Assembly (NCBI RefSeq): GCF_963506605.1
Contig: NC_083276.1
Span: 76,942,001 to 77,006,000 of the forward strand
From: Zootoca vivipara
Taxonomy: Eukaryota
DNA length: 64,000 nucleotides
Direction of reading: 5' to 3'
Shown here: piece after piece, positions 9,301-12,300 of the stretch
How positions within the stretch are numbered: the stretch's first letter is position 1
Layout: each line of letters begins with the position of its first letter
Made by a program: the position numbers

Positions 9301-12300
9301 AGGCAAATTCATGGAGGATAAGCCTATTAAGGGCTACTAGCCCAGATGCCTATGCTCTGTTTCCACAATCAGAGGCAGTAATGCTTCTGAACACCAGCTG
9401 CAAACCTCAGGAGAAAGTGCTTGGGTCATGCTTGGGAGTTTCCCATAGGTGTTTGGTGGACCAGATTGAGAACAGGATGCTGGACTAAGATTGGCCATTG
9501 GCTTTTCTTATGCTATTATACTCTGTACTTTTAGCTGCGTGCACAAATAAATAAGCAGTAAAGGCAGATTTTCCCAGCATGGAAATAGGTGCAAAGAAGG
9601 GAAAGCTGCCCTTGTTGATTTTTTGCCTCCCGTGCCATAGTTTAGCAGGCATCCCCAAACTGCGGCCCTCCAGATGTTTTTGCCTACAACTCCCATGATC
9701 CCTAGCTAACAGGACCTGTGGTCGGGGAAGACGGGAATTGTAGTCAAAAACATCTGGAGGGCTAAAGTTTGGGGATGCCTGGTTTAAGGCATAGAGTCTC
9801 CTGTGTCCAGAAAAAGAGATCACAACCCTCAGTTCCCCTTAAACATGATAAATGTTAAGTTGCACACACAACTAAGGCTAAGTATTCCATTGGCAACAGA
9901 CATTCCCAGTGACACAGCAGGAGAAAAGAGGCATCTGTTGCGGCTCCCCCGAGGGAAGCGGGCGGGGCGGGGTAGAATTGTGTGAAGCGGAGGTTCCCCT
10001 TAAACATGATAAATGTTAAGTTGCACACACAACTAAGGCTAAGTATTCCATTGGCAACAGAATGACACTGTAATTGGAGTTGATGTGAGTTGAAACATGG
10101 AGAGTGCTTTGCTGTAATCCTACCAGCATCTGCAAGAAAACAACCTGATATGCCACCTGAGCTGCTGGCAGTCAGCAGCTGACACCTTTATTTTTACCTG
10201 AGTCAAAGGTACACTTCCTGAGTTTGAGCTGGTTTCTATCTAAGCTAGTAGCAAAACAAGGAAGTGACTCAATGGCTCTATCTGAGTGGCCTACTCAAAG
10301 AATCAATCAGTTACTTATGCTAGTATTATTTGGATCAGAGAAGGTGTCATAAGCAATTATAGGATTCTCTACCACTAGAGAAAAGTCCGTTTTCAGAGCA
10401 GAAGACTTTGAACCAAACCAGGTGTGGTGAAGAATATCGGAATTCCCTGCTGCTTTTTTTTTTAAAAAAAAAAACCTAAAGGGAATGAGGAGAATTGGAT
10501 TAGGTGATGATGTTTAACCCTATGCTGTTTTCCTAAACCAAATTCCCCTCCCAAAGGGAGAAAACATACAGGTACTTGAATGGCGTTAGCATGTCCCATC
10601 TCCCCAATGGGAGACAGAGCAGCTTTTGGGAGGGTTGATAAAAAAACAACCTAGCAGAATGTGGTTTTGCTATTGGTTTTAAGCATCTTATAGTTGTACA
10701 AATGTTATTTCCCTGATGTGGAGAAAATCTTTATCTCAATCAACACCTCCCCCACCTTATCGACCTGCAGGGAGAAAGAGTGACCTGAGAGTCGAAAAAG
10801 CTGTGGGATATCTTGATCATGGATCTCCTGTATCAAAGTGTAACTTGTAAATGTCTACTTGATGCAACCCACTTCCTCTTCTTCATTATCCCTAAATTTG
10901 GGCTTTGATAACAGAACAGGTATTTGCATGGAGAATTCCTATCTTGCTCTAATGCAGTTCAAAAATACTGTTCTTCATTTGCGCTACTGCTACTTGTTTG
11001 CCAGCTTCTAGACCCAGGTGGTGCTGTGGGTTAAACCACAGAGTCTAGGGCTTGCTGATCAGAAGGTCGGCGGTTCGAATCCCTGCAACGGGGTGAGCTC
11101 CCATTGCTCGGTCCCAGCTCCTGCCCACCTAGCAGTTCGAACGTACATCAAAGTGCAAGTAGATAAATAGGGACCGCTCCGGCGGGAAGGTAGACGGCGT
11201 TTCCGTGCGCTGCTCTGGTTCACCAGAAACAGCTTTGTCATGCTGGCCACATGACCCGGAAGCTGTCTGCGGACAAACGCCGGCTCCCTCGGCCCATAGA
11301 GCGAGATGAGCGCCGCAACCCCAGAGTCGGACACGACTGGACCTGATGGTCAGGGGGCCCTTTACCTTTACAACTACAATGCTTACACTACAAAAATAGG
11401 CACATGTGTATGATGCAGTGACTAGCTCAGGGGCAGGGTCTCTTTGGGTTCTTTAGACCATATTGTTTATTTCCAAAATTGTTTGGAATAGCCACTTGAA
11501 CAAGAGAATGTCAAAATGTCAGAATGATTAAATCATTCTGGTTTATATGATTCTAGGTTGTAGATTTTTTTTTCCAAGGGGAAATCCTTGCTGCACATTG
11601 ATTTGGATTATAATCAAAAGGAAAAGCCAACAGGGAGTTTTTGTTGAATGCAGCAAGATAAACCTGCTTCATAAAAATAATTAAAAGCCTGTGTTTCGCT
11701 GACGATAAGGCGGTGCCATAAAACTGTCGCCTTCCTTGGCAGCAATCAACATGGGGGCTTGAAAAAATAATCTCTGTTTAGAGAACTGCCAGGAATGAAA
11801 TGTGTCTACTTGATGTTTTCTAAACTCCAGTTGTTTGCTAAAGCCTTTAAAGATTAGGGTTTTAAAGAAGCTGAGCCCCTGTCTCAAAAGATTTTGGGCT
11901 GGTCCTTAAATTCAGGTACATGTATTCCGAAATCTAAATCATACAAGCTAAAGAAAGAATCAGGTAGGAAGGCAGTAAGAACAAGCTTCAAGAAAAAGCA
12001 GGATCCTTCCCACTATGGCAAAGGACTAAAATAGCTTCCCTGTCATAGCAAGTGGACAGCTGTCCTCTGCTTGAAGCTTTGGAAGACTGAGTGTGGTCTG
12101 CCAGGTTCAACGCATCAGTGCTATATGGCCAAAAAAAAAGGACATATGTTTTTTCTAGCCATTCTTTGTTGGGTGTTCCTACTATTTGTTTGTTTCATTT
12201 ATATACCACCCTTCATCATAAGATCTCAGGGCAGTTCAGATACACATACTACTACTACTACTACTACACACAGGTTCAGATCTACATGTTTCAAAGCTTA

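What the first reader, a model, noticed from the sequence alone, without database searches (positions are those of the whole stretch)
9832..10061. Perfect 97-bp copy of CpG-island DNA inserted 5.9 kb away between 69-bp direct repeats
Seen: 9898-9994 is identical to 4009-4105, which lies in intron 1 / the CpG island and includes a double Sp1 GC box GGGCGGGGCGGGG. It sits between two identical 69-bp repeats (9832-9900, 9993-10061). The junctions show microhomology: AGA on the left, GT on the right. There is no poly-A, TIR or TE sequence. Established: this geometry fits replication template switching (FoSTeS/MMBIR) or polymerase-theta templated insertion. Inference: a very recent event (no CpG decay) that exported a promoter module to ~0.8 kb upstream of candidate exon 10771, possibly reflecting physical contact between the two sites.
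Basis: partly seen in the sequence, partly recalled or inferred. Interest (0 to 1): 0.72.

Follow-up and report, generated by a model that had tools for sequence, protein, structure and literature searches.

The report
Templated insertion scar with flanking duplication
A 92-base piece of a nearby CpG island was copied into a site 5.9 kb downstream while 69 bases of that site were duplicated around it, which looks like an ordinary, functionless scar of error-prone DNA repair or replication in a lizard or snake genome.

Summary
9898-9994 equals 4009-4105 (97/97). 9832-9900 equals 9993-10061 (69/69). The blocks overlap by AGA on the left and GT on the right, and all 230 bases are accounted for. 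Neither block has another copy in the window.

The best reading is one copy-not-cut templated insertion. A 3' end left the target site and primed on 3 nt of microhomology in the CpG island 5,889 bp upstream. It copied about 94 nt, then returned on 2 nt of microhomology 69 nt behind its departure point.

- "Very recent" only means under about 3-18 Myr.
- "Intron 1" and "exon 10771" have no support.
- "Promoter export" rests on a motif alone.

New details:
- A strong hairpin-forming element ends 50 nt upstream of the duplication.
- The copied piece holds the island's only G-quadruplex motif.
- A 27-nt, CpG-decayed second copy from the same island lies at 10767-10793.

Reads, other individuals and sister species could not be checked. 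It is a known kind of event, of low to moderate interest.

The parts
4009..4105 (+). Donor segment X in the CpG island; left intact (copy, not cut-and-paste)
   Evidence: 97/97 identical to 9898-9994. No flanking duplication at this site. Its GC content matches the island.
9832..9900 (+). Left copy of the 69-nt target-site unit A
   Evidence: 69/69 identical to 9993-10061. 38% GC, 0 CpG.
9898..9994 (+). Inserted copy of X (92 nt net; 97 nt counting the junction overlaps)
   Evidence: 6 CpG, all intact.
9993..10061 (+). Right copy of the 69-nt unit A
9898..9900 (+). Left junction microhomology AGA. With mismatches allowed it extends to 6 of 8 (GCAACAGA in the target against GCGAGAGA at 4004-4011).
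   Evidence: the repeat finder reports 102 nt at 98% for 4004-4105 against 9893-9994.
9993..9994 (+). Right junction microhomology GT
4064..4083 (+). Canonical G-quadruplex motif GGGAAGCGGGCGGGGCGGGG inside the donor. It includes the GC boxes at 4071-4083 and is copied to 9953-9972.
   Evidence: Regex scan of the whole window, both strands. It is the only such motif between 3 and 6 kb.
9646..9781 (.). Near-palindromic repeat element with 57-nt arms. It ends 50 nt upstream of the left A copy and is a candidate fork-stalling structure.
   Evidence: arms 86% complementary. (DNA fold -52.6 kcal/mol, z=-10.1, 0 of 200 shuffles as stable). Related copies at 18005-18118 and 45247-45297.
4045..4052 (+). 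TCTGTTGC inside the donor, the perfect reverse complement of the last 8 nt of A (GCAACAGA, 9893-9900). Possible tether, or coincidence.
   Evidence: Only 125 of 63,839 window 8-mers (0.2%) have their reverse complement in X. The test was chosen after seeing the match.
10767..10793 (+). Possible older 27-nt copy of island segment 4210-4236, in the same orientation and order as X
   Evidence: 25/27 identical, and both mismatches are CpG to TpG in this copy. Local alignment score 44 against a shuffle maximum of 29, with 0 of 200 shuffles reaching it.

Best explanation
This is a one-off, selectively neutral mutational scar. It is a templated insertion with a flanking 69-bp duplication, made by error-prone, microhomology-primed DNA synthesis during replication restart or break repair. 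That is the MMBIR/FoSTeS class, or equivalently an aborted SDSA intermediate finished by polymerase-theta end joining.

Proposed steps:
1. A growing 3' end at the target site came loose. This step is inferred. One candidate trigger is the strong hairpin-forming element that ends 50 nt away.
2. The end annealed by AGA (6 of 8 bases if mismatches are allowed) to the CpG island 5,889 bp upstream on the same chromosome. It copied about 94 nt in the same orientation. The outcome is shown; the enzyme is inferred.
3. It came loose again after ...GGAGGT and re-annealed by GT at the original locus, 69 nt behind where it had left. The 69 nt were therefore synthesised twice. The outcome is shown.

The mirror-image path on the other strand gives the same product. 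The donor was left unchanged. The G-quadruplex motif in the donor may have held that duplex open and so offered a single-stranded template; this is speculation. Nothing indicates that the insert does anything at its new site.
For: - **Full accounting.** All 230 nt are explained by A+X+A with 3-nt and 2-nt overlaps and no filler.
- **Microhomology at both junctions.** The joint chance is about 0.01, from 200,000 random junction pairs in this window.
- **Donor position.** The donor is intact, in cis, 5.9 kb away and co-oriented. If donors were drawn evenly from a genome of roughly 1.5-2 Gb (size assumed), a donor within 6 kb would have a chance of about 1e-5. This points to template choice by proximity.
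- **No mobile-element features.** There is no poly(A), no TIR and no other copy in the window.
- **Nearby structure.** A hairpin element with DNA folding energy -52.6 kcal/mol (z=-10) ends 50 nt from the duplication.
- **Literature.** Germline templated insertions of at least 25 bp with microhomology number about 100 per human genome, including 26-33 multi-switch 'complex' ones (PMC8421209, section 10 part 1 read). Tandem duplications arise from polymerase-theta joining of abrogated homologous-recombination intermediates (PMC8654963, passages).
Against: - A single assembled sequence is the only evidence. No reads, second individual or sister species could be examined.
- Microhomologies of 3 and 2 nt are short, and each alone is unremarkable (P=0.058 and 0.167).
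- The sequence cannot separate template switching at a fork from repair of a staggered break, nor a DNA template from an RNA template.
- The hairpin and G4 associations were noticed after the fact and are circumstantial.
- Genome-wide copy number of the 97-mer is unknown. If it is multi-copy, the 'nearby donor' argument weakens.
Confidence: 0.62

Rival explanations
1. Staggered double-strand break plus patch. Two nicks 69 nt apart on opposite strands gave long overhangs. These were filled in (directly for 5' overhangs, or by Pol alpha-primase/CST for 3' overhangs), so both ends carried the 69 nt. The ends were then joined with a 92-nt DNA patch between them.
For: Small tandem duplications under 100 bp are reported to arise at breaks with complementary overhangs, for example 43-nt overhangs made by paired nickases, and some carry additional changes at the junction (PMC8355091, passages read). 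The 69-nt duplication looks like a target-site duplication.
Against: A free fragment captured at a break would be expected from anywhere in the genome, not from 5.9 kb away in cis. Microhomology at both junctions favours annealing-primed synthesis over blunt ligation. If the patch was synthesised in place by polymerase theta, this rival merges with the best explanation.
Confidence: 0.15
2. RNA-templated repair. A transcript starting in the CpG island, possibly the nascent RNA of a gene whose first intron contains the target, served as template for a reverse-transcribing polymerase at a break in the target. This would be like a class 2 templated sequence insertion.
For: Templated sequence insertions at breaks are reported to be enriched for transcribed sequence and to be reduced by reverse-transcriptase inhibitors (PMC5110952, passages). 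The donor is in a CpG island, upstream of and co-oriented with the target, as a nascent sense RNA would require. The end of the 69-nt unit is perfectly complementary over 8 nt to the sense strand of the donor at 4045-4052, which could tether such an RNA.
Against: No transcript, transcription start site or strand could be established. The insert is colinear with genomic DNA, with no splice junction and no poly(A). Class 2 events are defined as lacking target duplications, and here 69 nt are duplicated. The 8-nt complement was found after the fact.
Confidence: 0.1
3. Assembly or library artefact, such as a chimeric molecule or a gap-closing error that made a false local duplication with foreign filler.
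For: Perfect identity of both repeat pairs is what an artefact would also give. The window contains an N run at 53465-53610, which may be an assembly gap or deliberate masking.
Against: Assembler mis-joins need overlaps of k-mer length, not 2-3 nt. There is no gap or N near the feature. The structure needs two precise switches that return to the same locus, which is typical of biology and unlikely for a consensus built from many reads (inference).
Confidence: 0.08
4. Insertion by a mobile-element enzyme: LINE-mediated retroposition of a short RNA with an unusually long target-site duplication, or a non-autonomous transposon that captured host DNA.
For: A flanking direct duplication is the hallmark of insertion at staggered cuts. 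LINE and SINE families are present in the window.
Against: There is no poly(A) or microsatellite tail and no AATAAA. The duplication starts with GTTCC and ends with ACAGA, not at a TT|AAAA-type site (criteria from PMC5110952). Target duplications are 'typically no more than 20 bp' (PMC13295347). There are no terminal inverted repeats and no second copy in the window.
Confidence: 0.03

Closest known systems
MMBIR/FoSTeS-type germline templated insertions (the 'MMB-TI' events of PMC8421209, 'complex' or multi-switch class)
   Same: A copy of nearby sequence is inserted with microhomology at each switch, the donor is kept, and more than one switch is involved. Such events are found as germline variants without gross rearrangement.
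   Different: I did not see that paper's template-distance limits, which are in its methods and supplements. So I cannot say whether a 5.9-kb donor distance and a 69-nt backward return are typical or at the long end.
Small tandem duplications from break repair (Pol alpha-primase/CST fill-in, PMC8355091; polymerase-theta joining of aborted SDSA, PMC8654963)
   Same: A duplication under 100 bp of the sequence at the break. The junction may carry extra templated sequence.
   Different: In the passages I read, templated inserts map to the sequence flanking the break. Here the insert comes from 5.9 kb away.
Templated sequence insertion polymorphisms (TSIPs, PMC5110952)
   Same: A short stretch copied from elsewhere is inserted and the donor stays intact. 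Junction microhomology matches class 2.
   Different: It fits neither class. It has a flanking duplication like class 1 but no poly(A), no polyadenylation signal and no TTTT/A site. It has microhomology like class 2, but class 2 lacks duplications. TSIP donors are described as distant, whereas this donor is in cis.

Membership tests
Microhomology-mediated templated insertion (MMBIR/FoSTeS class) | The inserted bases are an exact copy of a template elsewhere, and the template is retained | tested here: met
   97/97 identity, with the donor intact at 4009-4105.
Microhomology-mediated templated insertion (MMBIR/FoSTeS class) | Microhomology at each template switch | tested here: met
   AGA (3 nt; 6 of 8 with mismatches) and GT (2 nt). 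Joint chance about 0.01 from 200,000 random junction pairs.
Microhomology-mediated templated insertion (MMBIR/FoSTeS class) | The event arose during replication or break-induced synthesis | not testable with these tools
   Only circumstantial: a hairpin element 50 nt away.
Polymerase-theta end-joining templated insertion | The template lies in the sequence immediately flanking the break | tested here: not met
   The template is 5,889 bp away. The passages of PMC8654963 describe inserts that map to break-flanking sequence.
Class 1 TSIP / LINE-mediated retro-insertion | Target-site duplication of at least 5 bp | tested here: met
   69-nt duplication. This is far longer than the 'typically no more than 20 bp' quoted in PMC13295347.
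Class 1 TSIP / LINE-mediated retro-insertion | Poly(A) tail and an upstream AATAAA signal | tested here: not met
   The insert ends ...GAAGCGGAGGT directly against the repeat, and the insert holds no AATAAA.
Class 1 TSIP / LINE-mediated retro-insertion | Insertion at a TTTT/A-type endonuclease site | tested here: not met
   The duplication is bounded by CCCTCA|GTTCCC and AACAGA|ATGACA.
Class 2 TSIP (break patch, RNA-derived) | No target-site duplication | tested here: not met
   A 69-nt duplication is present. Definition from PMC5110952.
Class 2 TSIP (break patch, RNA-derived) | The donor is transcribed and the insert is made from RNA | not testable with these tools
   No expression data. No gene model could be established.
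DNA transposon, MITE, Helitron or LTR element | Terminal inverted or long terminal repeats with element-specific ends, and multiple copies | tested here: not met
   No terminal inverted repeats and no further copy in the 64-kb window. Genome-wide copy number is not testable here.
Functional promoter or enhancer module | Transcription-factor occupancy, open chromatin or transcription initiation at the copy | not testable with these tools
   Only motifs are present: GGGCGGGGCGGGG and a G4 motif. The downstream 'exon' is unsupported.

The most novel reading that the evidence does not exclude
The G-quadruplex-bearing part of this CpG island may be a recurrent template donor for repair synthesis in the region 6 kb downstream. 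There would be two separate events, one recent of 97 nt and one older of 27 nt with CpG decay, both in the same orientation. The cause would be that the island's strands are held open by a G4 or R-loop, or that its nascent RNA trails over the downstream intron and is itself the template. That would make the locus a natural germline record of transcript- or structure-guided, proximity-driven templated repair in a vertebrate.
Probability: 0.1. Interest if true: 0.55.

Novelty: new member of a known kind. Interest (0 to 1): 0.25.

Why it matters
Taken alone, this is a clean, fully resolvable example of a two-switch templated insertion in a squamate genome. Every base is accounted for and both junctions can be read. 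It is useful as an illustration, as a likely insertion/deletion marker (a 161-bp size difference) and as one data point for mutational-mechanism surveys.

It would matter more if a genome-wide scan showed that such events draw preferentially on CpG-island or G4 donors a few kb away, or land next to palindromic repeats. That would tie template choice to DNA structure and proximity. There is no evidence that it changes gene regulation.

Tried and rejected
**Repeat family or transposon.** Local blastn of A, X and 9000-11500 against the window found no further copies. No terminal inverted repeats were found. Tandem Repeats Finder reports nothing at the site among its 6 rows for 3-12 kb. Rfam gave 3 tRNA-like hits, all elsewhere.

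**The donor as a coding exon.**
- All three minus-strand frames are open across it, which is expected in GC-rich DNA.
- The 211-codon open frame (205 codons from its ATG) at 3625-4257(-) had 0 hits at E<=1e-3; 206 word-sharing candidates were scored.
- Pfam gave 0 matches above cut-off for 450 of 677 ORFs. The only row was a sub-threshold DNApolII_N match, E=0.003, 17.6 bits against a cut-off of 25, at 7763-7942(-).
- The remaining 227 ORFs (43-64 kb) were not scanned.

**The donor as an exon of a spliced RNA.** In the island the segment is bounded by AG (4007-4008 or 4009-4010) and GT (4104-4105). However, the 20-30 nt upstream are purine-rich with no pyrimidine tract, and a lone internal exon would not be retro-copied without its neighbours. 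Rejected as coincidence.

**A larger old duplication split by later insertions.** Local alignment of 4106-4700 against 10062-11016 found only the 27-mer. Alignment of 3401-4008 against 8801-9831 found nothing above shuffles; 82 of 200 shuffles scored as high.

**Flanking duplication around the 27-mer.** None found.

**Other A-X-A structures in the window.** None found.

**Papers.** (PMC4020087, rice tandem duplications) is not held. Searches were malformed term lists and were re-sent corrected. One search crashed partway on an index error; its second half was re-run. In one search the printed 'observed left junction = 30' is meaningless, because it compared the derived sequence with itself.

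Full report
**What the window is.**
- The base composition is vertebrate-like. GC is 35-50% with CpG depletion (observed/expected 0.05-0.5). Two CpG islands stand out, at about 3.6-5.0 kb (4001-5000: 63.5% GC, o/e 0.81) and at about 37-38 kb.
- A tRNA-derived SINE at 11017-11369 ends in CCCTTTACCTTT. A relative at 21570-21925(-) ends in ACCTTTACCTTT.
- PMC13295347 (abstract and passages) gives (ACCTTT)n as the tail of Sauria SINEs, which it describes as spread among lizards and snakes.
- I therefore take the window for a squamate reptile, not for human.
- The N run at 53465-53610 was left alone.

**The observation.**
- 9898-9994 is identical to 4009-4105 (97/97, same strand). 9832-9900 is identical to 9993-10061 (69/69). 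Neither identity extends by a single base.
- The blocks overlap by AGA and GT, so the 230 nt are fully explained as A + X + A with no filler. The net gain is 161 nt.
- Local blastn found no other copy of either block in the 64 kb.
- In a whole-window scan these are the only perfectly identical direct repeats of at least 30 nt within 8 kb (8 families). Of 9 direct-repeat pairs closer than 1 kb, this is the only perfect one.
- X is island-like (61% GC, 6 CpG). A is not (38% GC, 0 CpG). The island copy has no flanking duplication. Copying therefore ran from the island to the 9.9-kb site.

**What it is not.**
- There is no poly(A), no AATAAA and no TT|AAAA-type target. There are no terminal inverted repeats, no tandem array and no Rfam family at the site.
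- It fits neither class of templated sequence insertion polymorphism as defined in PMC5110952 (passages). Class 1 needs poly(A) and a TTTT/A site. Class 2 has no target duplication.

**Mechanism.**
- The simplest path has two microhomology-primed template switches by one growing 3' end. It moves out to the island on AGA (GCAACAGA against GCGAGAGA, 6 of 8), copies about 94 nt, and comes back on GT 69 nt behind the point of departure. The 69 nt are thus copied twice.
- The mirror-image path on the other strand is equally possible.
- Junction microhomology of at least 3 and at least 2 nt has a joint chance of about 0.01 (200,000 random junction pairs from this window).
- A donor within 6 kb in cis would be about a 1e-5 event if donors were drawn evenly from a genome of roughly 1.5-2 Gb (size assumed). 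This argues for template choice by proximity.
- Such events are a described class. PMC8421209 (section 10 part 1) reports about 100 germline templated insertions of at least 25 bp per person. Of these, 33 and 26 were 'complex' multi-switch events, and 138 of 155 and 135 of 148 junctions had at least 1 bp of microhomology.
- PMC8654963 (passages) attributes spontaneous tandem duplications to polymerase-theta joining of abrogated recombination intermediates.
- PMC8355091 (passages) shows duplications under 100 bp arising at breaks with long overhangs.
- A search-listing abstract (PMC13015775) states that polymerase theta can use mismatched microhomology.
- The names FoSTeS and MMBIR and their original descriptions are recalled, not read here.

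**Context found here.**
- *Hairpin element.* A near-palindromic repeat element at 9646-9781 (57-nt arms, 86% complementary) ends 50 nt upstream of the left A copy. As single-stranded DNA it folds at -52.6 kcal/mol against -19.5 +/- 3.3 for shuffles (z=-10.1, 0 of 200). A leftward-moving fork would have its 3' end at the left edge of A about 50 nt before this structure, which is where the first switch would occur on that strand. This is suggestive only.
- *G4 motif.* X contains the only canonical G4 motif between 3 and 6 kb (4064-4083). The window has nine G4-motif loci in all, counting the inserted copy. A folded G4 on the plus strand would leave the C-rich strand free as a template (inference).
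- *8-nt complement.* The last 8 nt of A (GCAACAGA) are the exact reverse complement of 4045-4052 inside X. Only 0.2% of window 8-mers have that property. I found this after looking, so I treat it as a curiosity.
- *27-nt second copy.* 4210-4236 matches 10767-10793 at 25 of 27, and both mismatches are CpG to TpG in the downstream copy. The local alignment scores 44 against a shuffle maximum of 29 (0 of 200). Among 36 short hits of that strength in the window's self-comparison, most are microsatellites or pieces of repeat families. It may be an older, smaller copy from the same island into the same region, in the same order and orientation. It has no flanking duplication.

**Age.** There are no differences in 166 compared sites. 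The 95% upper bound is 3.4 to 18 Myr for assumed rates of 2e-9 to 0.5e-9 per site per year, with CpGs in the insert decaying 1-10 times faster. 'Recent' is fair; 'very recent' is not shown.

**Gene context.**
- I could not establish any gene. 450 of the 677 stop-to-stop ORFs of at least 45 aa (all those within 1-43 kb) gave no Pfam match above cut-off. There was one sub-threshold row. The other 227 ORFs were not scanned.
- The ATG-bearing 211-codon open frame over the donor has no homologue.
- 'Intron 1', the exon and 'promoter export' therefore remain unsupported guesses.
- The GC-box reading rests on the recalled Sp1 consensus.

**Rivals.**
- Staggered break plus patch (0.15). It merges with the main reading if the patch was synthesised in place.
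- RNA-templated repair from an island transcript (0.10). PMC5110952, reports such inserts to be transcript-enriched and sensitive to reverse-transcriptase inhibitors.
- Assembly artefact (0.08). The 2-3-nt overlaps and the absence of any nearby gap argue against it.
- Mobile-element enzyme (0.03).

**What stayed unchecked.** Reads, other individuals, orthologous loci and genome-wide copy number were not examined. The supplements of PMC8421209, which may give template-distance distributions, were not opened.

**Verdict.** The feature looks real and is correctly described. It is a new example of a known kind of mutation, with no evidence of function. Interest 0.25.

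Noticed in passing
window 9646-9781; also 18005-18118 and 45247-45297: A near-palindromic, MITE-like repeat family with 57-nt arms. The DNA hairpin folds at -52.6 kcal/mol, z=-10. One copy sits 50 nt from the duplication.
   Followed up: partly
window 4210-4236 and 10767-10793: A 27-nt match (25/27). It may be an older micro-copy from the same island.
   Followed up: partly
window 11017-11369, 21570-21925(-), 63690-63970: tRNA-derived SINE copies, 85-89% alike. Two of them end in an (ACCTTT)n-type tail, matching the Sauria SINE tail given in PMC13295347. 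The third runs to the end of the window.
   Followed up: partly
window 51414-51782(-): An ORF whose translation resembles, from memory only, the C-terminal part of Bov-B/RTE LINE ORF2. It adjoins an AT-rich microsatellite.
   Followed up: no
window 36594-36839: A 123-bp tandem duplication (2 copies, 96% alike) just upstream of the second CpG island at about 37.0-38.0 kb.
   Followed up: no
window 5207-5228 and 5308-5386: A perfect 22-nt palindrome, CGCGGCACACTAGTGTGCCGCG. Nearby is a 25-nt direct repeat (96%) with a 29-nt spacer, at the edge of the first CpG island.
   Followed up: no
window 53060-53458 and 60360-60720; N run 53465-53610: Two copies of a repeat (88-96% alike over the matched blocks), one of which abuts the 146-base N run.
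   Followed up: no
window 58527-58583, 50950-51008, 63051-63108: Three Rfam tRNA matches (33-38 bits). They are probably heads of tRNA-derived SINEs rather than tRNA genes.
   Followed up: no
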